This document shows, in pieces, positions 1,863 to 61,834 of a stretch of 64,000 nt of DNA (positions within the stretch are counted from its first letter, which is position 1; each line of letters opens with the position of its first letter). The notes beneath the pieces were generated by a model that did not search any database, had not been told where the DNA came from, and worked only from the letters and a program-made list of their open reading frames with translations. A program made the translations under genes and the position numbers. This stretch comes from a virus. The DNA lies in IMG/VR virus record IMGVR_UViG_3300033149_003004, positions 18,656-82,655 of that record; one strand, 5' to 3'.

Positions 1863-2186
1863 ATGCGGGTGGTCTGCCAGACGATTGAAGCATTCGTCGA
1901 AAATCTGCGGATTGGAACGCCAGTCGAAAAAACGGTTTGGGTAGACATTACCGCAAGGGAAGTGAATGAGCACAAGATGGTGATGAACTTGCAAGCATCT
2001 GCCGTGGTCCAATTGCCGGACGGTGGCGAGTTCTTGCTCCAGTACGGCGAGGATTGTGGCTATGATTTTACGGATGGAGAACCTGAAATGGAGGGAACAA
2101 AGGCTGCGAAACACCGCCGCGGTTATTTGATCGAGCAGTGCGAGGACATGGGTTTAATGGTCAGGCCTGGCATAGTTGGGATATAG
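1863..2186 (+). CDS. Hypothetical protein
   Basis: GGGGAG RBS, tight operon packing. Confidence 0.6.
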   Translation: MRVVCQTIEAFVENLRIGTPVEKTVWVDITAREVNEHKMVMNLQASAVVQLPDGGEFLLQYGEDCGYDFTDGEPEMEGTKAAKHRRGYLIEQCEDMGLMVRPGIVGI

Positions 2187-2207
2187 AAACGATGAAGGGG
2201 AGAACCA

Positions 2208-2573
2208 ATGATAAAGTACAAGCAATTGAGTACGGAAGATGAAGCATTAGAAGATGTTCGTACGAATGTCGAAGCTGTGATAGGAATGCAGTGGATGGCT
2301 GTTGTGTGGTGTGTCGAAGACGGATGGGAAGATGATTTGCAGAGCATTCGGCTTGTCGGCCGGACCACTTGGAGGTTTCCACGCGAGAAGTTCGAGGCGG
2401 CTGTGGAACTGCTACGAGAGAATCTGGAAGCTGAGAAGAGGGATGGAGAGCCGGATCGTCCATCTCCTCTCAAGCTAGCACCGTTCGTGTCCGATCTTGC
2501 TGATGGCGATTCCCTCGTCGATCAAAACATGGAGGGTTTACTCCAGCGAAGAGAGAAAGAGGAAGCAGAATGA
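2208..2573 (+). CDS. Hypothetical protein
   Basis: GGGGAG RBS; stop overlaps next start (ATGA). Confidence 0.6.
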   Translation: MIKYKQLSTEDEALEDVRTNVEAVIGMQWMAVVWCVEDGWEDDLQSIRLVGRTTWRFPREKFEAAVELLRENLEAEKRDGEPDRPSPLKLAPFVSDLADGDSLVDQNMEGLLQRREKEEAE

Positions 2574-2998
2574 AGATGAGTGTCTTCAGACGATTCTTTA
2601 GGACTCGTACTTCTCGTACTTCCAAGGCGATGCAATTAGCAGAGCAGGCGGCAGTCCGCTTGGAGGAGAAGCACCGTAGACTCGTTCGGCAGGAGCGAGT
2701 TCTGCTATCGTTAGAGGAAGAAATCCTTCGATTGGTCGGTTCTGCATCCAAGCTGATAGAACGGGTGAAAGTGATATCGCAAACGACAGCGGATGACATT
2801 CGTGATACTCAGAGGGACTTGGAACGGGCGGAACATGCTATGGAGGCTTTGCGTACTGCTCACCAGGTGGATGCGGAGGTGACGATCCCAACCTTGCAGG
2901 CGAGGTGGGAGGAGTTGAAAGCAAAGCATGAAGCCAACATCGCTTTGTCGAACCATCGACGGGCGACATTGGCTCCCGGTAATATGGAGGAGGTGTGA
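2570..2998 (+). CDS. Hypothetical coiled-coil protein
   Basis: Heptad-rich sequence, coupled to both neighbours. Confidence 0.55.
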   Translation: MKMSVFRRFFRTRTSRTSKAMQLAEQAAVRLEEKHRRLVRQERVLLSLEEEILRLVGSASKLIERVKVISQTTADDIRDTQRDLERAEHAMEALRTAHQVDAEVTIPTLQARWEELKAKHEANIALSNHRRATLAPGNMEEV

Positions 2999-4659
2999 TG
3001 TCCGAAGCTCTGGCCAAAGCGATTCGCAGGACATCGGCGATTGCATCACTTGCATTTGCATCGACCAGACAGGTTGGAGGAAGTTCTGGTGCCATTGATC
3101 TGGTCCCGTCCGATATGGCGTCCGGTTTGGATTCTTGGCAGAAGCAACAGGCGTATGCCCATCGCTACAGTCAGATGCGGGGCTGGGTATATTCGGCGAT
3201 CAACGCTCTGGCCAGTGAAGCGGCTGGGCAACATGCAGTCGTGGCCCGATTGAGTGGGGTGAAGCGGGAGCAGAAACCGAGAGGAAGCAAGCTCCTAGAA
3301 TTGACTCGTATGCCGCTGTCGACGCGGAGAAAGGCGGCTGAGCAGGAATACGAGATTCAGAGGGATCATCCTTTGGTGGATCTGTTGGAAAGACCCAACC
3401 CGATTCAAGAGCGATGGCAATTCGTCTATTCCTTTGTCGCTAATTTGGTGATCACTGGTTGGGCATACATTGTGCTTGGCAGGGCGAAGGGCAAGGACGG
3501 GAAGCTGGAGATGTACAGTCTCCCGACAACGTGGGTTAAACCTGTGCATGATAAGGGATCGTTCTCGTCTTTCGAGGTACGGAATCCGCGGGCAACGGGA
3601 GTGGAGCCGGCCATGCTGGATAGGAGTCAAGTGGGGTTTGCTCATTTACCGAACCCTGGTGATCCGATGGCGGCACTGGCTCCGGCGTCGACTCAAATGA
3701 TGGCGATCCGAGTAGACGATCACATTCAGACTTCTCAGGAGGCGTTCTTTCGGAACGGTATCTTCCCGAGTGTGATCATCACGATGGGTCAAGGGCCGTA
3801 TCAAGACACAAAAGGGAGGCCAGTATTGACGGGGGCCCAGCGCCGGCAGATCAACTTGGCTCTGAAGAAGCGGTGGGTTGGGGATGCGAATCAAGGAAAC
3901 GCCGCGATCATCGATGGCCTGATTGACAAAATTGAGCCTTGGTCCGTTTCGCATCGAGAAATGGGTTGGGAGCGTAGTGAGGAGAAAGTGAGGACACGGA
4001 TTCTCAGTGCATTCGGTGTCCATCCGTTCATCCTGGGAGAGGCTGTCGGAGTGGGAGGGTATGCCCAGGCCGTGATTATCCAGGAGCGGTTCCACAAGCG
4101 AGTGAACACATACTTGGAGATGCTCGGTAATCTGTTGACGAACTTGCTTGGTGGATTGGATGAAAGCGAGCGGATGATCGTTTGGTTTGAGCAATGCCGG
4201 GCTAGCGACAAATCGTTAAGGCAGACTTTGTTGCAATTCATGCGTTCCAATGGAGATATTTCGCAGAATGAGCTAAGAGCCGAGGCTGGCTTTCCGCCGG
4301 ATGAGGATTTGAATCAGGCTGTGATTCAGCCGAGTATGATGGCGGGGATTGCTCAGTTTCTTTCGCTGCTCGGAACTGGGCAGATGCAACGAGAACAAGC
4401 TGTTGTCGCTTTTGAGCTTATGGGCCTACCTTCCGGAGAGGCAGAGAAGCTTGCAGGTATGGGCTTGCCCAAGGCTGAGCCTCAGCCTCTGTTGGAAGGG
4501 CCAAAGCCGTCGAGCGAGGAAGAAAAACTGGGGGAAGAAGAGAAAAGCGAGGAGGCCATGGAAGAGCTGAAGATGGCAAACCTTCTGCTGGCCAGAGCGA
4601 TGGAAGCGTCCGAATGGCAAGCGGAGCGGATCTTGAGGAGTGTCGAGTGCTCTTGCTGA
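2995..4659 (+). CDS. Portal protein (HK97 family)
   Basis: VYSAINALA, HPLVDLLERPNP, FFRNGIFPS, ILSAFGVHP, ISQNELRAEAGFPP motifs. Confidence 0.92.
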   Translation: MMSEALAKAIRRTSAIASLAFASTRQVGGSSGAIDLVPSDMASGLDSWQKQQAYAHRYSQMRGWVYSAINALASEAAGQHAVVARLSGVKREQKPRGSKLLELTRMPLSTRRKAAEQEYEIQRDHPLVDLLERPNPIQERWQFVYSFVANLVITGWAYIVLGRAKGKDGKLEMYSLPTTWVKPVHDKGSFSSFEVRNPRATGVEPAMLDRSQVGFAHLPNPGDPMAALAPASTQMMAIRVDDHIQTSQEAFFRNGIFPSVIITMGQGPYQDTKGRPVLTGAQRRQINLALKKRWVGDANQGNAAIIDGLIDKIEPWSVSHREMGWERSEEKVRTRILSAFGVHPFILGEAVGVGGYAQAVIIQERFHKRVNTYLEMLGNLLTNLLGGLDESERMIVWFEQCRASDKSLRQTLLQFMRSNGDISQNELRAEAGFPPDEDLNQAVIQPSMMAGIAQFLSLLGTGQMQREQAVVAFELMGLPSGEAEKLAGMGLPKAEPQPLLEGPKPSSEEEKLGEEEKSEEAMEELKMANLLLARAMEASEWQAERILRSVECSC

Positions 4660-7127
4660 CCGACCGTCGAAAGCCGAGTATTGTTCAAATTCGCCGAAAA
4701 CTCACGGCCGTCCGCCGTCGCCGGTTTGAGCTGGCTGCGAAAAGCATGCGTCTGGTGCAAAAGGTGGTGGCTAATCGGCAGTTTATGTCCACCGAGCGGG
4801 AAGTGACGAAAGCTCTTATCCCGTTTTTTGTCGAGCAGGGACGTTCGATGGCTGCTCGGCTGCGGAGGATTGAGCAGAAGACTGTAGAGAATCTATGGAC
4901 GAAACGGACTTCTCTCGGCTCTGCTGCTGGCTTGATTCAGCTGATCTTTGATCCAAAAGAATGGCGTACCAATCTGACAAATCGTTTGTTGCCGGTACTA
5001 GCCCGAAAGATGGCAGAAGCTGGCGTGGCCCACCTGATGACGCTGGGAATCGACGTGCGGAGAAAGCAAAGGAAGAAGGGATTGAAGACCACTACTGCTG
5101 CGGATTGGGCTGAGGAGAACATTGCCGATTGGGATTCGCTTGTCGAGGCTTTTGAAGCTTCTAATCTACCAATGGGAATCATGAACGAGATTCCTACTTG
5201 GATGCAGGAGAGCATCGCTGAGAGACTCTCTGAGAGTTTTGCCGAAGATTACTGGGATTCGATTAGCAAGACGACGATGGGGGATGCCGAGAAAGTCTTG
5301 CGGCAGGGATTATCTGAAGGATGGTCGATCGGTGATATGGCTGGAGAGCTACGGCAGTATTTTGAGGAGGGAGGGTTTCGATATGCCCGACGCCGGTCGG
5401 AGAACATCGCCAGAACCGAGTCCGGGAATGCTCTGAACGCTGCTAGGAAGGGCAGCGTCGCTCGACTTCAGCAGGAATTGGGACCTGAAGTGCCGATGAA
5501 ACAATCGTGGCTTTCCGTGCTAGGCATTACAACGCGAGACACACACGCGGAGCTGGATGGTGTACCGGAGAATGAACGAGGAATGTGGGTCTTATCCGGT
5601 TACGAGATACCGTGGCCCGGACATATTAGCTTGCCTCCTTCGGAGCGCTGCAATTGCTTCCCTGCTGGAACGTTGGTGTCAGGAGATTTTGTCGGGGCGC
5701 AGAGAGCGTGGTACGAGGGGACATTCACCGAAATCATAACTGGCTCTGGGAGGAGGATCACCACAACCCCACAGCACCCAATAGTGACCTTGGAGGGACT
5801 TGTTCCGGCAGGCGAGGTCAAGCCAGGCCAGAAGGTCTTGGCCTATCGTCCGGAGGCTGATTTGCCGTCGGTGGTGGCTTCCCGTGGCGATGATGTAAAG
5901 AACGAACCAGTTGCGGTCGAGCAGCTTTTTGAGGCGTTTCTTGCCGGGACGGTTGCCGCCTCGTCCAGCATTGAAGTCAAACGCGCTCAGGTGGACGATT
6001 TCTATGGCGATGCGAAATCCTTTCAGGGCGATATCGAGATTGTACGGGCCAACTGGGGCCTGTTGGACGATGGGAAATTCGGCCAGTTTGAGAAACGTGG
6101 CAATTCTGTCCTCATCTGTGTGGATTCCGGTTTGGTTTTGGAATTTAGAGATCGCTCTTTTGGCCTTGCGTCTGGTCGGATCGGATCGTCCCCTTCTAGC
6201 GGTCCACGCCTTGCTGAGCCACTGCTTAGCTGCCTTCGATCTATCGCCAGCATCACGCCATCGGGCTCGCTGTCCGTCGGAGTAGCTGCGGATTTCCACG
6301 TTCGCCTCGATCAATCGTTGAGACAGGACGGCCCTGGAATATCCGGTTTCCTTCGAGAGTCGTTGGAGCGGTATGCCGGATTGGTACAGTTTGATGATGT
6401 GGTCGAGGTCAGGGATTTCTATTCTGCGGGTCATGTTTACGATCTCCAAAGCCGGTGGGGATTGGTGGTTGCTTCCGATCCATTATACACTGACAATCGT
6501 TTTCCTCCTAGTGGAATTGTCGTGTCGAATTGCCAGTGCAGTCTCACGATTGAGTTTGGGATGGACCCTGCCGAAGCCATGCAGAGGATAGAGGAGTATT
6601 GGCAACATGTAGAAGAATGGGAATCGAAAGGCTACGTGTGGCCTTGGCAGAAGTACAATCCGAACCGTGATCCTGCAACTGGAAGATTTGCTCCTGGCGG
6701 AGGTGGAGATGATGGAGGTGGAGCAAGCGGAAGGGAAGAGGGAAGAGCCGAGCGGGCGAGACGCGCACATAAGACAAGCACAGCAGAGAAGCAGAGGAGG
6801 GGAGAAGCAGAGCAAAAGCGGATGGCCAAGGCAATCGGGGGTGAGAACGATGGGGATAATAAACCATTCGATGTGATCGTGGGAGGGAAGCATGGGATTG
6901 AAGTCAAGACTGTGATGGATAACAACAACGATAAGATCACCGTGCATCCTGAATCTCGCCGGCGGAAGGAAGCTGCCGCCAAAAAGCAAAAGCTAAAGAT
7001 TCACACTATAGCTATTGATATTCGTGAGGGAAAGCGATCTTATTATTACAGGGAGGGGGTTGGAGCCTTCCGCCTCAAAAATATGGAGAAAGTATCGCTT
7101 CGGCAGTTGAAGGAGAAGTTCCGGTGA
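4614..7127 (+). CDS. MuF/SPP1 gp7-like minor head protein with intein and C-terminal PD-(D/E)xK nuclease-like extension (start uncertain)
   Basis: RSENIARTES, TRDTHAELDG, ERCN/CQC MuF motifs; NPNRDPATGRF + Gly linker; KPFDV..GIEVKT. Confidence 0.88.
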   Translation: MASGADLEECRVLLLTDRRKPSIVQIRRKLTAVRRRRFELAAKSMRLVQKVVANRQFMSTEREVTKALIPFFVEQGRSMAARLRRIEQKTVENLWTKRTSLGSAAGLIQLIFDPKEWRTNLTNRLLPVLARKMAEAGVAHLMTLGIDVRRKQRKKGLKTTTAADWAEENIADWDSLVEAFEASNLPMGIMNEIPTWMQESIAERLSESFAEDYWDSISKTTMGDAEKVLRQGLSEGWSIGDMAGELRQYFEEGGFRYARRRSENIARTESGNALNAARKGSVARLQQELGPEVPMKQSWLSVLGITTRDTHAELDGVPENERGMWVLSGYEIPWPGHISLPPSERCNCFPAGTLVSGDFVGAQRAWYEGTFTEIITGSGRRITTTPQHPIVTLEGLVPAGEVKPGQKVLAYRPEADLPSVVASRGDDVKNEPVAVEQLFEAFLAGTVAASSSIEVKRAQVDDFYGDAKSFQGDIEIVRANWGLLDDGKFGQFEKRGNSVLICVDSGLVLEFRDRSFGLASGRIGSSPSSGPRLAEPLLSCLRSIASITPSGSLSVGVAADFHVRLDQSLRQDGPGISGFLRESLERYAGLVQFDDVVEVRDFYSAGHVYDLQSRWGLVVASDPLYTDNRFPPSGIVVSNCQCSLTIEFGMDPAEAMQRIEEYWQHVEEWESKGYVWPWQKYNPNRDPATGRFAPGGGGDDGGGASGREEGRAERARRAHKTSTAEKQRRGEAEQKRMAKAIGGENDGDNKPFDVIVGGKHGIEVKTVMDNNNDKITVHPESRRRKEAAAKKQKLKIHTIAIDIREGKRSYYYREGVGAFRLKNMEKVSLRQLKEKFR
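5679..6434 (-). CDS. HTH + Vsr/DUF559-like endonuclease encoded antisense inside the MuF intein
   Basis: N-terminal HTH (IIKLYQSGIPLQRLSKETGYSRAVLSQRL); EDRIATFL..QQAPVGPYNLDIA..IAIEI..LLDRNWFVLYI; GGAG RBS before ATG 6434 (ORF track starts at TTG 6449). Confidence 0.8.
   Translation of the reverse strand: MTRRIEIPDLDHIIKLYQSGIPLQRLSKETGYSRAVLSQRLIEANVEIRSYSDGQRARWRDAGDRSKAAKQWLSKAWTARRGRSDPTRRKAKRAISKFQNQTGIHTDEDRIATFLKLAEFPIVQQAPVGPYNLDIALKGFRIAIEIVHLSAFDFNAGRGGNRPGKKRLKKLLDRNWFVLYIIATGSHHRRQISLRTIGQDLLAWLDLACRNKSLQGHYWVLWGCGDPPPRASYDFGECPLVPRSLRPDKIS
6482..6511 (-). promoter_or_regulatory. Putative promoter for the antisense endonuclease (CTAGGAG-N17-TATAAT)
   Basis: Minus strand reads CTAGGAG gaaaacgattgtcagtg TATAAT, 48 nt upstream of ATG 6434; same architecture as 8377-8406. 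Confidence 0.55.
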
Positions 7128-56985: not shown

Positions 56986-58362
56986 ATGGTGAAGGTGAAC
57001 GAGGCAAAAATCTACCGCGAATTCTTGGCGAAGAAGATCCAGGTTGGGATCGATGCCGGATTCAAGCCCCTGTGGATACCAGATTTTCTGTTCGGCTTTC
57101 AGCAGCTATTGGTTGAGTGGGCGATCCGGAAGGGCCGTGGGGCTATCTTCGCCGATTGTGGGCTTGGCAAGACACCCATATCGTTGGTTTGGGCGGAAAA
57201 TGTGGCCCGGAAAACGAACCGCCCGGTGCTGATATTGACGCCGCTTGCTGTGGCGCAGCAGTTCGTCCGCGAGGGGAGGAAGTTTGGCATAGAAGTGAAA
57301 CTTGCCCGCGATGGTAAGGTGAGGAATGGCATTAACGTTGTCAACTACCAACGTCTTCATTATTTCAATCCTGGTGATTTCGCTGGCTTAGTCTGTGATG
57401 AATCTGGCGTGTTGAAACATTACGATTCCAGAACCAGGGCAAATGTTGTGAGGTTTGCGTCTGCAATTCCATATAGACTACTTGGCACAGCCACGCCGGC
57501 ACCCAATGACTACATGGAGCTTGGCAACTCATCGGAGGTCTTGGGCGTAATGCGACACGCCCAAATGCTAGCAATGTTCTTCGTGAACGACAGTGACACA
57601 GTACAGCAGTGGAGATTGCGAGGACATGCCCAGCGCCAATTCTGGCGGTGGCTCGCTGGATGGGCCCGTGCCGTGCGGAAGCCCAGCGATTTGGGATTCG
57701 AGGATGGCCCGTTCATCTTGCCGGAACTGACTGTAGAGCAGCATTTAGTTCAGAGTGGGCGAAAGCCCGAAGGCTTGTTCGTGCTGCCGGCTGTTACTTG
57801 GCGAGAGCAGAGACAGGAGCGAAATTCTACGATCCGAAGTCGTTGCGAGAAGGTAGCGGAGTTGGCTCCGCAGGATAGACCGTTCATCGCTTGGTGCCAT
57901 CTGAACGCTGAAGGGGATTTGCTGGAGAAGCTGATTCCCGATGCTGTGCAGGTCAAGGGGGCTGATAGTGATGATCGGAAGGAGTCGGTGTTGAGTGATT
58001 TCGCTGAGGGAAACCTGCGAGTGCTGGTGACGAAGCCGAAGATCGGCGGTTTTGGATTGAACTTCCAGCATTGCTCTGACCTGAGCTACTTCCCCTCCTA
58101 TTCGTTTGAGCAATGGTATCAGGTGGTTCGGCGGTGCTGGAGGTTCGGACAGCAGCGACAAGTGAGTGTATCAGTTGTGGCGACAGAGGCGGAATCCAGG
58201 GTGAGCGATGCTATGTGGAGGAAGGAAAGACAGTCTATAAGATTGTATGATTCGATAATAAGGGAAATGGGTGAATTTCAGACTGTCGAGAAAATGCCTG
58301 TGGATGATACTGCTTCGGTGGGAAGTGTGAAGCTGCCTGTATGGTTGGGGAGTAAGGAATGA
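56986..58362 (+). CDS. SF2 (SNF2-like) helicase
   Basis: DCGLGKT, CDES, TATPAPND, QVVRRCWRFGQ. Confidence 0.88.
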   Translation: MVKVNEAKIYREFLAKKIQVGIDAGFKPLWIPDFLFGFQQLLVEWAIRKGRGAIFADCGLGKTPISLVWAENVARKTNRPVLILTPLAVAQQFVREGRKFGIEVKLARDGKVRNGINVVNYQRLHYFNPGDFAGLVCDESGVLKHYDSRTRANVVRFASAIPYRLLGTATPAPNDYMELGNSSEVLGVMRHAQMLAMFFVNDSDTVQQWRLRGHAQRQFWRWLAGWARAVRKPSDLGFEDGPFILPELTVEQHLVQSGRKPEGLFVLPAVTWREQRQERNSTIRSRCEKVAELAPQDRPFIAWCHLNAEGDLLEKLIPDAVQVKGADSDDRKESVLSDFAEGNLRVLVTKPKIGGFGLNFQHCSDLSYFPSYSFEQWYQVVRRCWRFGQQRQVSVSVVATEAESRVSDAMWRKERQSIRLYDSIIREMGEFQTVEKMPVDDTASVGSVKLPVWLGSKE

Positions 58363-60320
58363 GCTCTATGCCAGTAAAGAAGCAGAAGGTGACGAAGGCT
58401 TTTGCTTTGTACTGCGGAGACTGCTGTGAAGTGCTACCGAATTTACCGGACGAATCTGTAGGGTTGTGTGTGTTCAGTCCGCCGTTTGCCGATTTGTATA
58501 CTTACACAGACGATCCGAAAGACATGAGCAATTGCCGATCCTACGACGAGTTTTTTGAACACTTCACATTTTTGGTGGAGCAACTGGAGCGGCTGATGAT
58601 GCCAGGTAGGATAGTTGCTGTTCATTGTATGGAGTTGTCATTGCACAAGTCTCGCGGAGAGGAAATTGGTATCAGGGACTTTCCCGGAGACATCGTACGA
58701 TGCTTTCTACGATTTGATTTCGTACAACACTCTCCTAGGATAACGATCTGGAAGGATCCATTGACAGCCGCTGTGCGAACGAAGGCGATCGGGTTGGCAC
58801 ACAAGCAAATCATCAAGGATTCGGCGTTTTGTCGCACTGGGATTCCGGATTACGTGATTGCATTTCGCAAACGCGGGGAGAATAGCGTTCCAGTGAAGCA
58901 CGAGCGAGGATTGACAGAGTACTATGGTTCCAGAAAAGTCCCTACTAAGCTGGATCGTTATCTCGTCGAAGATGTGGAGCAGAAGCATAATAAGCGTTCG
59001 CATTGGATATGGCAGCAGTATGCCAGCCCGGTATGGTCTGATATCCGGCAAACCTATGTGCTGGAGTATCGAGAAGCTAGGGACGGTGATGACGAGAAGC
59101 ATATATGCCTCGCTAGGGATAGCAGGGTGTTGGTGAAGAAGCGGGGATATGTGCCGATTCAGTTAGTGGAAACTAGTGATCGTGTCTTAACGCATAAGGG
59201 AAGGTGGCGGCGAGTGTTGGCTGTTGAATGTACCGGGATTAACCCAGTAGTTACAGTTCGTTCACAAGGAGTGCCCGGATTGACCGTTACTCCGGATCAT
59301 AAGTTGTGGGCCAGGAAATCTGATTGGATCCGGCAGCGTGATGGAGCGGAACGTGTGGATGCTACGTGGGTCGAAGCAGAGAATTGTTTGGGAAGTTATC
59401 TTAATTTGAAATTGCCGGAGGAAGAGGAGCCAATTAACCTCAATCCTCTGCATTGGTGGATAGTAGGTCGGTGGCTTGCTGATGGATGCTGGGGTGCTAA
59501 GGGAGAGGCGTTGATTGGTTGTGGTTACCATGAGTTAGGTAAATTGATCGACTGCTTGGGCGATCATGCTGGGACCGTCAGCGATTGCGGAACTGCAAAT
59601 CAGATTAGGTTGCGAGATCGGGGTGGTAAGGTTAGAGCTATTTTGGAGCGTTGTGGCATCGGAGCCGTTGGGAAGCATCTCCCTCCGGGGGCATTCACGT
59701 TGCCGTCGCGTTTGGCAAAATCGCTAGTCGATGGCTACCTCTCTGGGGATGGGCATTTGTTGGAGGATCGGCAGAGATGGACGGCCAGTAGCGTCAGCCG
59801 CGATCTTTTGATGGGCCTGGCTATGTTGATCCAGAGAGCTTACGGAAGTATTGCCAGTGTTTACGCGGGACGGCCTGCTAGGGAAGGCATGATCGAAGGA
59901 AGGCTTGTTCAATGCGAGCAAGAGTGGATATTGTCATTCGATTTGGTTGGGGATGGTCGACGCAAGCGGCAATTCATCGTAAATGATGGAGCCTGGAAAA
60001 AGGTTCGATCTGTCGAGGATGCTGGTCGATGTGAAACGTGGAATCTTAGGGTTGAGGAAGACGAAAGCTATACGGCAGAAGGGTGTGTCGTAAAAAACTG
60101 TCCACTACAGCTGGATGTGATCGAACGCTGTGTCGCATTGTGGAGTGCGAGAGGGGATGTTGTGCTGAGTCCCTTTATGGGAGTTGGCTCCGAGGTCTAC
60201 GTCGCTGTGAAGAATCATAGAAAGGCTATCGGCGTCGAATTGAAAGAGTCCTACTTCGACCAGGCTCTAAAGAATCTTGAGAGTTTAAGACGTTCTAGAG
60301 AGGTAAGGCTTAAGCCATGA
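58359..60320 (+). CDS. N4/N6 DNA methyltransferase with intein
   Basis: FSPPF, DVVLSPFMGVGSE, GVELKESYF; EKHI/CPLQL split by the intein. Confidence 0.9.
   Translation: MSSMPVKKQKVTKAFALYCGDCCEVLPNLPDESVGLCVFSPPFADLYTYTDDPKDMSNCRSYDEFFEHFTFLVEQLERLMMPGRIVAVHCMELSLHKSRGEEIGIRDFPGDIVRCFLRFDFVQHSPRITIWKDPLTAAVRTKAIGLAHKQIIKDSAFCRTGIPDYVIAFRKRGENSVPVKHERGLTEYYGSRKVPTKLDRYLVEDVEQKHNKRSHWIWQQYASPVWSDIRQTYVLEYREARDGDDEKHICLARDSRVLVKKRGYVPIQLVETSDRVLTHKGRWRRVLAVECTGINPVVTVRSQGVPGLTVTPDHKLWARKSDWIRQRDGAERVDATWVEAENCLGSYLNLKLPEEEEPINLNPLHWWIVGRWLADGCWGAKGEALIGCGYHELGKLIDCLGDHAGTVSDCGTANQIRLRDRGGKVRAILERCGIGAVGKHLPPGAFTLPSRLAKSLVDGYLSGDGHLLEDRQRWTASSVSRDLLMGLAMLIQRAYGSIASVYAGRPAREGMIEGRLVQCEQEWILSFDLVGDGRRKRQFIVNDGAWKKVRSVEDAGRCETWNLRVEEDESYTAEGCVVKNCPLQLDVIERCVALWSARGDVVLSPFMGVGSEVYVAVKNHRKAIGVELKESYFDQALKNLESLRRSREVRLKP
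59106..60098 (+). mobile_element. Intein (331 aa) with in-frame LAGLIDADG endonuclease
   Basis: CLARDSRV, VTPDHKLW, GRWLADG, GYLSGDG, WNLRVEEDESY..VVKN then Cys+1. Confidence 0.93.
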
Positions 60321-61834
60321 CGGAAGAACTCTATAAACGATATCGTCCGGCGAACTTCGGGGAAGTGATCGGGCAAGACGACGTGGTTCGGCAGTTGGTC
60401 GACTTCGGCCGAAGGCGACAAATACCTCACTTCTTACTGCTTGTTGGGCCTAGCGGTACGGGCAAAACGACGGTAGCTAGGATTCTCCGTAAGAAGATGG
60501 GCTGCGGGGATGTGGACTACAGGGAGATCAATGCCAGCGACTATCGCGGGATCGACATGGTGCGGGAGATTCGCTCCAACATGTCGTTGGCTCCGATCTC
60601 CGGCAAGTGCAGGATGTGGATGATTGATGAATGCTTCCCGGCTGGCACGGTGGTTTCGGTTGTGGGTGGGAAGAAGCCTATTGAGCGGGTACAGATGGGA
60701 GACCGAGTTTATACTGTAGATGGTATCTCTTGTGTCAAAAAAGTGTTTCAGAATGCAGTTACTTTGGATCGGCTTGTGCGATTGCATTTCAGTGATGGCA
60801 GGACGATTGTTACTACACGACAACACAGATTTTTGACGGAGGAAGGTTGGGTTGAGGCTGGTGATCTGGATATTGGATTGGGTATTTATAGAGTTGGCGA
60901 TTCCGACAAGGGTTCCGAAAGGCATGGGATATCCGACTTGCTACAAAGCCGACATTGGGAGCAGGAAACGCAGATTGGTAATCGAGGTCGATGGGAATGG
61001 CCATCGGTCGAAAAAGGCTATATCGCTAGACAGAAAGAAAACCCATCGGCTCGAGCAGTTAGGGTGGACTGTGTTGAGATTTACAAACCAGGATGTAATG
61101 ATGAATCTTTCGCGGGTGTTGTCGGAGATTCAGAGCGTCGTTCAGGTTTGGTGACGTTCTATGATTTGCAGGTTGCTGGTCACCCATCCTATTTTGTAGA
61201 AGGATTGCCTGTGCACAATTGCCATCAGCTTACTTCGGATGCTCAGAATGGACTCCTTAAGATCTTGGAAGACACTCCACCTCATTGTTATTTTGTCCTG
61301 TCCACAACTGACCCGCAAAAGCTCAAGCGGACGATTATTACGCGAGCAACACAACTCAACTTTCGCTTGTTGTCAAGTAAGGATCTGAGGCAGGTGATTG
61401 ATGACGTAGTAGAGAAAGAGAAGACATCGCTGTCTGACGAAGTCATGGATCGACTGGTTGATGTTGCGGAAGGCTCGGCGCGCAAAGCACTAGTTTTGCT
61501 CCATTCGATAATAGGGATGAAGACGGAGGACGATCAATTACAAGCGATAGCCAAAGGGGACTTCAAAGCGAAGTCGATTGAGCTAGCAAGGCTTTTGATG
61601 AAGCCTGGGGCGAATTGGGCGGAAGTCTCTGCTCTGCTGAAGGGGATGGACGAGGAGGTGGAGCAGATGCGATACATGGTGTTGGGCTATTGCCGATCCG
61701 TGCTGCTCGGAGGGGGAAGGATGGCGAGGCGGGCTGCTGCTGTGATTGACCGCTTCCAGGATGCGATGTATGAATCCAAAGCTGCTGGCTTCGCTTTGGC
61801 TTGTTGGGATGTACTGAATCCACCGAGGGAATAG
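60317..61834 (+). CDS. dnaX: DnaX/clamp-loader-like AAA+ protein with intein
   Basis: LYKRYRP.NF.EVIGQ, GPSGTGKTT, IDE/CHQL, LLKILE, GSARKA. Confidence 0.9.
   Translation: MTEELYKRYRPANFGEVIGQDDVVRQLVDFGRRRQIPHFLLLVGPSGTGKTTVARILRKKMGCGDVDYREINASDYRGIDMVREIRSNMSLAPISGKCRMWMIDECFPAGTVVSVVGGKKPIERVQMGDRVYTVDGISCVKKVFQNAVTLDRLVRLHFSDGRTIVTTRQHRFLTEEGWVEAGDLDIGLGIYRVGDSDKGSERHGISDLLQSRHWEQETQIGNRGRWEWPSVEKGYIARQKENPSARAVRVDCVEIYKPGCNDESFAGVVGDSERRSGLVTFYDLQVAGHPSYFVEGLPVHNCHQLTSDAQNGLLKILEDTPPHCYFVLSTTDPQKLKRTIITRATQLNFRLLSSKDLRQVIDDVVEKEKTSLSDEVMDRLVDVAEGSARKALVLLHSIIGMKTEDDQLQAIAKGDFKAKSIELARLLMKPGANWAEVSALLKGMDEEVEQMRYMVLGYCRSVLLGGGRMARRAAAVIDRFQDAMYESKAAGFALACWDVLNPPRE
60632..61219 (+). mobile_element. 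Intein (196 aa) at the Walker B site, with +1-frame endonuclease
   Basis: CFPAGTVV, TTRQHRFLT, FYDLQVAGHPSYFVEGLPVHN then Cys+1. Confidence 0.93.
60852..61154 (+). CDS. DUF559/Vsr-like endonuclease in the +1 frame inside the DnaX intein
   Basis: YKADIG..RLVIEVDGNGH..DRKKT..LEQLGWTVLRFTNQDV; GGAGG 9 nt before TTG. Confidence 0.8.
   Translation: MRLVIWILDWVFIELAIPTRVPKGMGYPTCYKADIGSRKRRLVIEVDGNGHRSKKAISLDRKKTHRLEQLGWTVLRFTNQDVMMNLSRVLSEIQSVVQVW

What the first reader, a model, noticed from the sequence alone, without database searches (positions are those of the whole stretch)
60632..61219. Second intein hides a DUF559 endonuclease in the +1 frame: a recurring out-of-frame intein nuclease system
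Seen: the 196-aa DnaX intein looks like a mini-intein in its own frame. The +1 frame (60852-61154) encodes a clear DUF559-type domain (YKADIG..LVIEVDGNGH..DRKKT..LEQLGWTVLRFTN) exactly between blocks B and F. A GGAGG lies 9 nt upstream of a TTG start. Both frames stay open over about 300 nt. Both unusual inteins begin CFPAGT, while the third (MTase) intein has a conventional in-frame LAGLIDADG. Inference: Vsr/DUF559 genes colonise inteins as overprinted genes, in either orientation, and standard annotation would miss them. This copy may be N-terminally truncated, or be reached by a +1 frameshift from the intein frame.
Basis: partly seen in the sequence, partly recalled or inferred. Interest (0 to 1): 0.88.

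Follow-up and report, generated by a model that had tools for sequence, protein, structure and literature searches.

The report
Truncated out-of-frame endonuclease inside intein
A phage clamp-loader gene carries a self-splicing intein whose DNA also encodes, one base out of step, the cut-down remnant of a separate DNA-cutting "homing" gene; the layout is real and typical of a large phage intein family, but the general design was already reported in 1998 and in 2025-2026 preprints.

Summary
Observation confirmed. The DnaX-like clamp-loader gene (60317-61834) carries a 196-aa intein (60632-61219). Its +1 frame is open from 60837 to 61154 and matches Pfam DUF559 (E 7e-15).

This is not an assembly error or a one-off. 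In about 70 related viral contigs (57 non-identical full-length copies) the DUF559 domain always lies in the +1 frame of an uninterrupted intein.

Full-length copies encode a 200-355 aa protein with its own ATG, often a Shine-Dalgarno site, zinc ribbons and a Vsr-like (EDxHD) nuclease; the best structural match is I-Bth0305I. The intein frame has almost no stops across that gene (0.02 per locus observed, 13.6 expected). The wobble position follows the +1 frame. The last ~100 nt code in both frames.

The window's copy is one of at least five independent deletion derivatives. It keeps every invariant nuclease-core residue. It has lost the native start, the zinc ribbons, the helical region and the first helix, so it is probably no longer a working homing enzyme.

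Out-of-frame intein endonucleases are published for other nuclease types. I found no report of a same-strand Vsr-like version. This scan has already noted the layout in at least 54 other genomes.

The parts
60317..61834 (+). DnaX-like clamp-loader AAA+ ATPase gene, 505-aa precursor. The exteins are 60317-60631 and 61220-61834.
   Evidence: ORF list. Pfam DNA_pol3_delta2, AAA and RCF lid. An intein-less homologue, L002, is 57% identical over 310 aa and reads TIDEAAQL at the site.
60632..61219 (+). Intein of 196 aa, read in the host frame. It is inserted after Walker B, MIDE|C...VHN|CHQ.
   Evidence: Pfam Intein_splicing, PT-HINT and Hint_2. AlphaFold2 mean pLDDT 87.6. Foldseek top hit is the gp41-1 intein 6QAZ, E 1e-8, target TM 0.84.
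60632..60895 (+). N-terminal splicing (HINT) subdomain, intein residues 1-88, including block B (TTRQH).
   Evidence: pLDDT 86-98 with strands E7-75. Conserved C1, H65 and GW in alignment A2.
60896..61006 (+). Host-frame linker, intein residues about 89-125. It is the out-of-frame reading of endonuclease DNA.
   Evidence: Block-mean pLDDT 48-54 for residues 91-120. Across relatives the least conserved codon position here is host-frame position 1, which is the +1-frame wobble.
60837..61154 (+). +1-frame open stretch of 105 codons, stop to stop. Candidate starts are TTG 60852, GTG 60861 and ATG 60924; the stop is TGA 61152-61154.
60942..61142 (+). DUF559 / Vsr-like (EDxHD) nuclease core in the +1 frame. 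It has Y31, D34, E45, D47, H51, D60 and K62, counted from the TTG.
   Evidence: Pfam E 7.2e-15. All 11 invariant columns of the 45-sequence family alignment are kept. Core HMM score is 119 bits against 125 +/- 7 for full-length members.
60838..60842 (+). GGAGG, 9 nt upstream of TTG 60852. This is a possible but unproven ribosome-binding site.
   Evidence: Sequence. It lies inside host-frame codons T-E-E-G-W of the splicing domain and is not conserved in relatives.
61058..61154 (+). True dual-coding stretch. The host frame encodes C-terminal splicing strands and helices (residues 143-174). The +1 frame encodes the last strand and helices of the nuclease.
   Evidence: All three codon positions are conserved across 37 loci (0.57-0.87). 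pLDDT is 94-98 in the host frame. The host-frame sequence is kept even in mini-inteins whose +1 frame is broken (L011, L016).
61155..61219 (+). Intein blocks F and G (TFYDLQV...GLPVHN), coding in the host frame only.
   Evidence: Host-frame third position is the least conserved (0.41-0.47). The +1 stop lies exactly 65 nt before the intein end in 37 of 65 non-identical loci.

Best explanation
The window's clamp-loader intein belongs to a large phage family of contiguous inteins related to gp41-1. They are inserted at the Walker B motif (hhhDE|C...HN|CH) of clamp loaders and SF2/SNF2 helicases. The homing endonuclease of these inteins is not a domain of the intein. It is a separate gene nested in the +1 reading frame.

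In full-length members, ribosomes start independently at an ATG just after the N-terminal splicing domain. They make a 200-355 aa protein with one to three zinc ribbons, a helical region and a Vsr-like EDxHD nuclease.

By inference from I-Bth0305I and ordinary homing, this enzyme cuts intein-less alleles in co-infecting phages. Repair then copies the intein and the endonuclease gene together.

The host frame is read straight through the endonuclease gene as a mostly unstructured linker. Selection there acts only against stop codons. The intein then splices itself out and restores the clamp loader.

The 3' ~100 nt of the endonuclease gene also encode the first C-terminal splicing elements, so both frames are constrained there.

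The window's copy has suffered an in-frame (3n) deletion. The deletion removed the native start, the zinc ribbons, the helical region and the RGGNG/first-helix segment. The nuclease core remains, still open in +1. I infer that the intein still splices as a mini-intein. I infer that the remnant is no longer an autonomous site-specific homing enzyme, which is the degeneration stage of the homing cycle.
For: Shown:
- The DUF559 hit in the +1 frame.
- The same +1 relation in every one of about 70 related loci that has N-HINT, C-HINT and DUF559 matches, taken from 252 relatives found in IMG/VR.
- In 57 non-identical full-length loci the intein frame has 0.02 stops per locus against 13.6 expected under synonymous shuffling. 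The third frame has 22.7 against 20.4.
- Substitutions concentrate at +1-frame third positions: 282/232/439 in pairs of 63-96% identity, with the family-wide pattern.
- The codon-position pattern switches along the window's intein: +1 wobble at residues 103-142, all positions conserved at 143-174, host-frame wobble at 175-196.
- The ATG lies a median of 4 codons after a +1 stop. A Shine-Dalgarno core is present in 28 of 57 loci against 14% background.
- The L027 +1 protein folds with pLDDT 94. Its top Foldseek hits are I-Bth0305I (3R3P), DUF559 (3HRL) and Vsr. The profile hits 3HRL at E 2e-11 and 3R3P at E 0.002.
- The window's host-frame intein folds as HINT with a low-confidence linker.
- Short forms are scattered among full-length lineages on the splicing-domain tree, so there were at least 5 independent deletions.
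- The window lacks everything upstream of the L.W..E segment of the family alignment but keeps all invariant columns.
- An intein-less allele exists (L002).

Inferred: independent translation, cleavage of the empty site, splicing activity, and loss of activity in the truncated copy.
Against: - No expression, splicing or cleavage data exist for any member.
- The window's nuclease core shows no decay: 119 bits against 125 +/- 7 for full-length members, and no stop in 105 codons. A GGAGG-N9-TTG could drive translation, so residual activity cannot be excluded.
- No close relative (above 51% identity) of the window's intein was found. Selection on the truncated ORF itself therefore could not be measured.
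- Close-pair synonymous/non-synonymous counts were too few to be decisive.
- AlphaFold confidence in the dual-coded host-frame stretch could be inflated by conservation that the other frame imposes.
Confidence: 0.75

Rival explanations
1. The truncated +1 ORF is still a working gene. It would be translated from TTG 60852 using the GGAGG 9 nt upstream. It would give a 100-aa minimal Vsr-like nuclease about the size of stand-alone DUF559 proteins, and this would still promote homing or serve another nuclease role.
For: - All invariant catalytic-core residues are retained, and the core HMM score lies within about one standard deviation of full-length members.
- The frame is open for 105 codons.
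- GGAGG sits at good spacing from the TTG.
- The solved DUF559 protein 3HRL (104 aa) and the I-Bth0305I catalytic-domain construct (105 aa) are of similar length.
- A second short form, L069, has a similar 5' boundary.
Against: - It lacks the zinc ribbons and helical region that every full-length member has. It also lacks the nearly invariant RGGNG..T.PQ segment that forms the first helix of the nuclease domain in the L027 model.
- The GGAGG is a by-product of host-frame codons T-E-E-G-W and is not conserved.
- L069 carries D-to-N at the metal-binding position.
- Other short forms are plainly decaying, for example L011 with stops and L016.
- In I-Bth0305I, target recognition is attributed to the N-terminal DNA-binding region (PMC3239194).
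Confidence: 0.13
2. The intein ancestrally had an in-frame DUF559 endonuclease domain. This copy (or the whole family) would then be a pseudogenised domain put out of frame by two compensating indels.
For: - An in-frame homologue exists in a different intein. P0136 is a UvrD-like helicase whose intein contains the same nuclease type in frame.
- Three database proteins (P0053, P0060, P0120) read from the host frame into the +1 frame at different points and end at the endonuclease stop.
Against: - About 70 diverged loci share the same +1 offset. They have their own ATG just after a +1 stop, often with a Shine-Dalgarno site, and the +1 stop is most often at the same place.
- Wobble-position variation follows the +1 frame, so that frame is under purifying selection and is not decaying.
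- A single indel would destroy the essential C-extein, so a stepwise route is unlikely (inference).
Confidence: 0.05
3. Sequencing or assembly error: two indels in this metagenomic contig produced an apparent frame change.
For: The record is a metagenome-assembled virus. No reads could be inspected.
Against: The same frame relation holds in about 70 contigs from many independent samples. It also holds in finished genomes of cultured phages (CP-T1 and the Nahant Vibrio phages).
Confidence: 0.01
4. The nuclease is reached by programmed +1 ribosomal frameshifting from the intein frame. This would give an N-extein/N-intein/nuclease fusion.
For: Both frames are open over the junction. The SD-like GGAGG could act as a stimulator as in prfB (established knowledge; a lead only).
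Against: - A +1-frame stop (TGA 60834-60836) lies just upstream.
- There is no slow or stop codon of the prfB type in the host frame downstream of the GGAGG.
- Full-length relatives begin with their own ATG right after a +1 stop. A shift would have to occur inside the gene and would skip the zinc ribbons.
Confidence: 0.03

Closest known systems
[quoted passage not shown]
   Same: The host gene type is the same (DnaX / clamp loader). The intein is contiguous, and its middle is an unstructured read-through while an overlapping same-strand ORF encodes the endonuclease. Selection depends on the frame. Full, mini and empty alleles coexist.
   Different: That endonuclease is described as LAGLIDADG-like and the hosts are cyanobacteria. 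Here the nuclease is Vsr-like/EDxHD with zinc ribbons and the hosts are phages. The intein resembles gp41-1 more than the Spirulina DnaX mini-intein (6QAZ E 1e-8 against 7CFV E 5e-5). The same element also sits in helicases. I did not test whether the insertion site is the same.
Non-canonical actinobacteriophage inteins (bioRxiv 10.1101/2025.01.02.630785)
   Same: These are inteins whose endonuclease is encoded outside the intein frame. Examples are antisense Vsr-like endonucleases (including in minor capsid proteins, like this window's MuF intein) and a same-strand frame-3 endonuclease VII-like gene. The read-through part is unstructured.
   Different: The Vsr-like cases reported there are antisense, and the same-strand case has a different nuclease fold. 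A same-strand +1 Vsr-like gene in a contiguous intein is not described there.
Fractured genes: split inteins with a free-standing Vsr-like endonuclease gene between the halves (Dassa et al. 2009, PMC2677866)
   Same: The hosts are phage DNA-metabolism genes. A free-standing Vsr-like endonuclease gene with its own start lies at the endonuclease insertion point of the intein, and its 3' end overlaps the coding region of the C-terminal intein part (6-69 bp there). The intein fold closest to the window's is gp41-1, one of the fractured loci that paper analysed.
   Different: There the host gene is broken into two ORFs and the intein is split and trans-splicing. Here the host frame runs through the endonuclease gene without stops (0.02 against 13.6 expected), so the precursor is contiguous. 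That paper states that Vsr-like endonucleases were not known in inteins.
I-Bth0305I, prototype of the EDxHD homing endonuclease family (Taylor et al. 2011, PMC3239194; PDB 3R3P)
   Same: It has a Vsr-like catalytic domain with the composite E, D, H, D residues at the C-terminus, and a separate N-terminal DNA-binding region. It is encoded in a mobile element in a phage DNA-metabolism gene.
   Different: I-Bth0305I is encoded in a group I intron and has NUMOD-type N-terminal motifs. The family here is nested in an intein and has zinc ribbons. The window's copy lacks any N-terminal DNA-binding region.

Membership tests
Intein (HINT splicing domain, class 1) | Cys/Ser at position 1, block B TxxH, C-terminal HN followed by Cys/Ser/Thr | tested here: met
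   C1 (CFPAGT), TTRQH at residues 61-65, and VHN followed by C.
Intein (HINT splicing domain, class 1) | HINT fold | tested here: met
   AlphaFold2 pLDDT 87.6. The Foldseek top 50 are inteins or HINT domains, the best being gp41-1 6QAZ at E 1e-8.
Intein (HINT splicing domain, class 1) | Insertion in a conserved site of a host protein that also exists without the insert | tested here: met
   The insert lies after Walker B (MIDE). The intein-less homologue L002 is 57% identical and reads TIDEAAQL.
Intein (HINT splicing domain, class 1) | Protein splicing activity | not testable with these tools
   Needs expression of 60317-61834 and detection of the ~309-aa spliced product.
DUF559 (PF04480) / Vsr-like PD-(D/E)xK nuclease | Profile match above the curated cut-off | tested here: met
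   55.2 bits against 20.6, E 7.2e-15, but only profile positions 44-108 of 109. Full-length relatives also match only from position ~42-44.
EDxHD homing endonucleases (I-Bth0305I type) | Composite catalytic residues E, D, H, D | tested here: met
   E45, D47, H51 and D60 of the window ORF fall in invariant or nearly invariant columns of alignment A3. The motif definition is from PMC3239194.
EDxHD homing endonucleases (I-Bth0305I type) | Vsr-like catalytic fold | tested here: inconclusive
   Met for the full-length relative L027: pLDDT 94, top Foldseek hit 3R3P at E 9e-4, then 3HRL and Vsr. The window's own truncated product was not folded, and it lacks the first helix of that domain.
EDxHD homing endonucleases (I-Bth0305I type) | N-terminal DNA-binding region that gives target specificity | tested here: not met
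   Full-length relatives have 1-3 zinc ribbons and a helical region. The window ORF starts only about 30 residues before the catalytic Y-K-x-D.
EDxHD homing endonucleases (I-Bth0305I type) | Cleavage of the element-free allele near the insertion site | not testable with these tools
   Needs an in vitro cleavage assay on the L002-type site.
Non-canonical inteins with an out-of-frame endonuclease | Contiguous intein frame kept open across an endonuclease ORF in another frame | tested here: met
   Window: 0 stops against 4.6 expected, P 0.002. Family: 0.02 against 13.6.
Non-canonical inteins with an out-of-frame endonuclease | Purifying selection on the alternative frame | tested here: met
   Shown at family level by codon-position patterns. 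It could not be measured for the window's truncated copy alone.
Non-canonical inteins with an out-of-frame endonuclease | The endonuclease ORF has its own translation start | tested here: inconclusive
   Full-length relatives have an ATG right after a +1 stop, with a Shine-Dalgarno core in 28 of 57. The window has only TTG, GTG or a late ATG, and its GGAGG is not conserved.
Fractured genes (Dassa 2009) | Host gene split into two ORFs with a split intein | tested here: not met
   The host frame is uninterrupted in the window and in 56 of 57 full-length relatives.

The most novel reading that the evidence does not exclude
The ~100-nt stretch where the nuclease's C-terminus and the intein's C-terminal splicing elements share the same bases in two frames may be a selected 'entanglement'. 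It would shield the 3' half of the selfish endonuclease gene from deletion. Under this reading, truncated copies like the window's (intact catalytic core plus a new GGAGG-N9-TTG start) would still make an active minimal nuclease. That would keep apparent mini-inteins mobile or give them another role.
Probability: 0.1. Interest if true: 0.6.

Novelty: new variant of a known kind. Interest (0 to 1): 0.4.

Why it matters
Inteins that look like endonuclease-free mini-inteins, or that appear to have featureless middles, can hide a complete mobility gene in another frame. Gene callers miss it. Published phage genomes such as Vibrio phage CP-T1 annotate only a "putative helicase" over the region.

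The family found here spans at least 252 viral contigs and three ATPase host families at one Walker B site. It adds a same-strand Vsr-like version to the short list of out-of-frame intein endonucleases. It also sits between the contiguous inteins and the "fractured genes" of Dassa et al. (2009), which bears on how inteins acquire and lose endonucleases.

The family offers natural examples of long dual-coding DNA in which one frame is selected only to stay open. The window itself adds a snapshot of endonuclease loss by an in-frame deletion. It does not add a new principle.

Tried and rejected
The DNA of the protein-database homologues P0004-P0007, P0053, P0060, P0120 and P0136 could not be fetched.
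- The look-up of sequencing runs listed no run, neither DNA nor RNA holders.
- The metagenome scan for close relatives of the window's intein found nothing above 51% identity. The viral scan with the whole protein found only the intein-less L002. No dN/dS could therefore be computed for the truncated ORF.
- Synonymous/non-synonymous counts on near-identical pairs gave only 24 substitutions (9 synonymous in +1 only, 6 in the host frame only). This is uninformative.
- A single-sequence tblastn of the window's 100-aa ORF against phage records showed only matches of about 36-40% identity under genes annotated as helicases. I first read these as C-terminal DUF559 fusions. Searching with a full-length relative showed they are the same nested +1 arrangement.
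- Pfam found nothing in the antisense ORF of the MuF intein. The search of solved-structure sequences also found nothing. Profile comparison with the +1 family was weak (probability 30%, E 5e-4).
- Correlation between splicing-domain and nuclease-core distances is positive but weak (rho 0.22; 0 of 500 permutations reach it). I do not use it as proof of strict co-inheritance.
Full report
**What is in the window**

The window belongs to an 82,655-bp IMG/VR virus record with direct terminal repeats. Gene 60317-61834 (+) encodes a DnaX-like AAA+ clamp loader. A 196-aa insert, 60632-61219, interrupts it right after the Walker B motif. The insert starts CFPAGT and ends VHN, and a Cys follows.

In the host frame the insert matches the intein and HINT Pfam models. 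With an alignment of 51 relatives, AlphaFold2 gives a confident HINT fold for residues 1-88 and about 130-196. A low-confidence stretch lies around residues 89-125. The best structural match is the gp41-1 intein (6QAZ, E 1e-8, target TM 0.84).

An intein-less homologue, L002, is 57% identical and reads TIDEAAQL at the site. The natural empty site is therefore not literally IDE|CHQ.

**The +1-frame domain**

The +1 frame is open from 60837 to TGA 61152-61154. The 100-aa ORF from TTG 60852 matches Pfam DUF559 at E 7.2e-15, covering profile positions 44-108. GGAGG lies 9 nt upstream of the TTG. With the +1 protein held fixed, synonymous shuffling leaves the intein frame open in only 0.2% of trials. 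The third frame carries 10 stops.

**Is it an error or a one-off?**

It is neither. A protein search restricted to the intein part found clamp-loader homologues with longer inteins at the same site. Their host-frame middles look like featureless filler, yet they align with the window over the DUF559 overlap.

A scan of IMG/VR with intein-frame patterns found 252 relatives, of which 80 were kept. Every locus that has N-terminal HINT, C-terminal HINT and DUF559 matches carries the DUF559 domain in the +1 frame relative to the intein. That is about 70 loci, about 65 of them non-identical. The intein frame is uninterrupted in all but one, L038.

Long inteins (265-439 aa) hold +1 ORFs of 200-355 aa. 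These begin just after the N-terminal splicing domain, mostly at intein residues 80-106. The ATG lies a median of 4 codons after a +1-frame stop. A Shine-Dalgarno core is present in 28 of 57 loci against 14% background. In 37 of 65 loci the ORF ends exactly 65 nt before the intein end.

**Selection in the two frames**

- Across 57 non-identical full-length loci the intein frame has 0.02 stops per locus over the +1 ORF. Synonymous shuffling predicts 13.6. The third frame shows no avoidance (22.7 observed, 20.4 expected).
- Substitutions concentrate at +1-frame third positions. Family-wide difference fractions are 0.45, 0.41 and 0.59 for positions 1, 2 and 3, close to the host-frame control in the N-terminal splicing domain. 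In pairs of 63-96% nucleotide identity the counts are 282, 232 and 439.
- The pattern switches along the window's intein. For residues 103-142 the least conserved position is the +1 wobble. For residues 143-174 all three positions are conserved. For residues 175-196 the host-frame wobble varies.

So the +1 frame encodes a protein under purifying selection. Most of the host frame is selected only to stay open. About 100 nt (61058-61154) code in both frames. Mini-inteins whose +1 frame is already broken (L011, L016) still keep the host-frame sequence of that stretch. This shows an independent constraint from the splicing domain.

**What the +1 protein is**

Full-length members have one to three CxxC...CSxxC zinc ribbons and a helical region. 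Next comes a nearly invariant RGGNG..T.PQ..L...L.W..E segment. The nuclease core follows, with invariant Y, D, E, G, H, D and K.

- The L027 protein folds with mean pLDDT 94.
- Its best structural matches are the I-Bth0305I catalytic domain (3R3P), the DUF559 protein 3HRL, and Vsr.
- The family profile finds 3HRL at E 2e-11 and 3R3P at E 0.002.

The E, D, H, D residues fit the EDxHD homing endonuclease family as defined by Taylor et al. 2011.

**Host range of the element**

The same intein with its +1 gene sits in clamp loaders, ResIII/DEAD helicases and SNF2 helicases. It is always at hhhDE|C...HN|CH.

It also occurs in cultured phages. In Vibrio phage CP-T1 gp10, annotated 'putative helicase', an intein starts TDE|CFPAGT and a 250-codon +1 ORF has two zinc ribbons and the nuclease core. 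Vibrio lentus phages of the Nahant collection are the same. No paper in the library mentions CP-T1 together with inteins.

**The window's own copy**

It is a short form.

- It keeps all invariant columns of the nuclease core.
- It scores 119 bits against a core HMM, where full-length members score 125 +/- 7.
- It lacks everything upstream of L.W..E: the native ATG, the zinc ribbons, the helical region, and the RGGNG segment with the first helix of the nuclease domain.

On a tree of the splicing domain, the short forms (the window, L010, L011/L016, L012-15 and L069) are scattered among full-length lineages. L012-15 sit right next to the 403-aa L042. This implies at least five independent deletions.

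This is the expected decay phase of a homing element. The deletion must have been a multiple of three, because the host frame is intact. I therefore read the window's ORF as a recent remnant and the intein as a functional mini-intein. Both points are inferences.

The GGAGG is made by host-frame codons T-E-E-G-W and is not conserved in relatives. I give about 13% to the truncated ORF still being active.

**Other forms of the same nuclease**

- P0136, a UvrD-like helicase, has the homologous nuclease in frame inside a different intein.
- P0053, P0060 and P0120 read from the host frame into the +1 frame at three different points and end at the endonuclease stop. They could be indels, errors or fractured forms.
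- The window's MuF-type intein (5655-6530) holds an antisense ORF. One relative, L090, shows the same antisense arrangement with a clearer Vsr-like motif.

**What is already known**

- Dassa et al. 2009 described free-standing Vsr-like endonuclease genes between split-intein halves. The gene's 3' end overlapped the downstream intein part by 6-69 bp. They stated that such nucleases were not known within inteins.
- A 2025 preprint on actinobacteriophage inteins reports antisense Vsr-like endonucleases and a same-strand frame-3 endonuclease VII-like one.
- A September 2026 preprint shows an out-of-frame LAGLIDADG-like endonuclease in the cyanobacterial dnaX intein, and credits the idea to Gorbalenya 1998.
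- A hidden out-of-frame HNH in a phage methylase insert is also published.

I found no report of a same-strand +1 Vsr-like/EDxHD gene in a contiguous intein. This scan itself has noted the layout 66 times in at least 54 genomes, including clamp-loader and helicase cases. The follow-up conclusions there match mine.

**Verdict**

At family level this is a new variant of a known kind. The window's copy is a truncated member.

**Limits**

- No sequencing run was listed.
- No close relative of this copy was found.

Noticed in passing
window 5655-6530 (+) with antisense ORF 5679-6449 (-); L090 2183-4297 (-) with ORF 2150-3445 (+): The MuF-like minor head protein (4614-7127) carries a second intein that starts CFPAGT, and a 256-aa ORF lies on the opposite strand wholly inside it. 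Pfam and the search of solved-structure sequences find nothing. Profile comparison with the +1 nuclease family is weak (E 5e-4, probability 30%) and the IEVDG motif reads IEIVH. A relative at 24% identity (L090) shows the same antisense arrangement with a clearer Vsr-like motif. This matches the antisense Vsr-like inteins in minor capsid proteins reported in preprint 10.1101/2025.01.02.630785.
   Followed up: partly
window 58359-60320 (+): A DNA methyltransferase gene carries a third intein in the same phage. LAGLIDADG-like motifs are visible (GRWLADGC, GYLSGDG), but Pfam reported no LAGLIDADG family at E up to 0.1, only N6_N4_Mtase and a weak Vint hit.
   Followed up: no
L091 (Vibrio phage CP-T1, NC_019457 6842-9823) and L092 (Vibrio phage 1.027.O, MG592411 43310-46012): Published genomes of cultured phages annotate a single 'putative helicase' or 'coil containing protein'. 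That gene in fact contains an intein (TDE|CFPAGT...VVVHN|CHH) and a nested +1-frame zinc-ribbon/Vsr-like endonuclease ORF of about 250-263 codons. These phages could be used to test the arrangement experimentally.
   Followed up: partly
L069-L089 (for example L082:2614-4956, L087:632-3361): The same intein with its +1 endonuclease gene occupies clamp loaders, ResIII/DEAD helicases and SNF2 helicases, always at the Walker B / motif II site hhhDE|C...HN|CH. This suggests host-gene switching through a shared nucleotide-binding motif.
   Followed up: partly
protein P0136 (1472 aa), residues about 860-1168: A UvrD-like helicase has a different intein (it starts CLPGST) that carries the homologous Vsr-like nuclease in frame, without zinc ribbons and without overlap with the C-terminal splicing part. 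In-frame, +1-frame and antisense versions of this nuclease type therefore all exist.
   Followed up: partly
proteins P0053, P0060, P0120; locus L038 3307-4476: Three clamp-loader proteins in the database read from the host-frame filler into the +1 nuclease frame at three different points and end at the endonuclease stop. L038 has one stop in the intein frame. These could be fractured-gene forms, pseudogenes or sequencing indels. Their DNA could not be fetched.
   Followed up: no
L012, L013, L015 (178-aa inteins) versus L042 (403-aa intein): Three short-form inteins sit right next to a full-length one on the splicing-domain tree. This looks like a recent deletion of most of the nested endonuclease gene and would make a good pair for mapping a deletion junction.
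   Followed up: no
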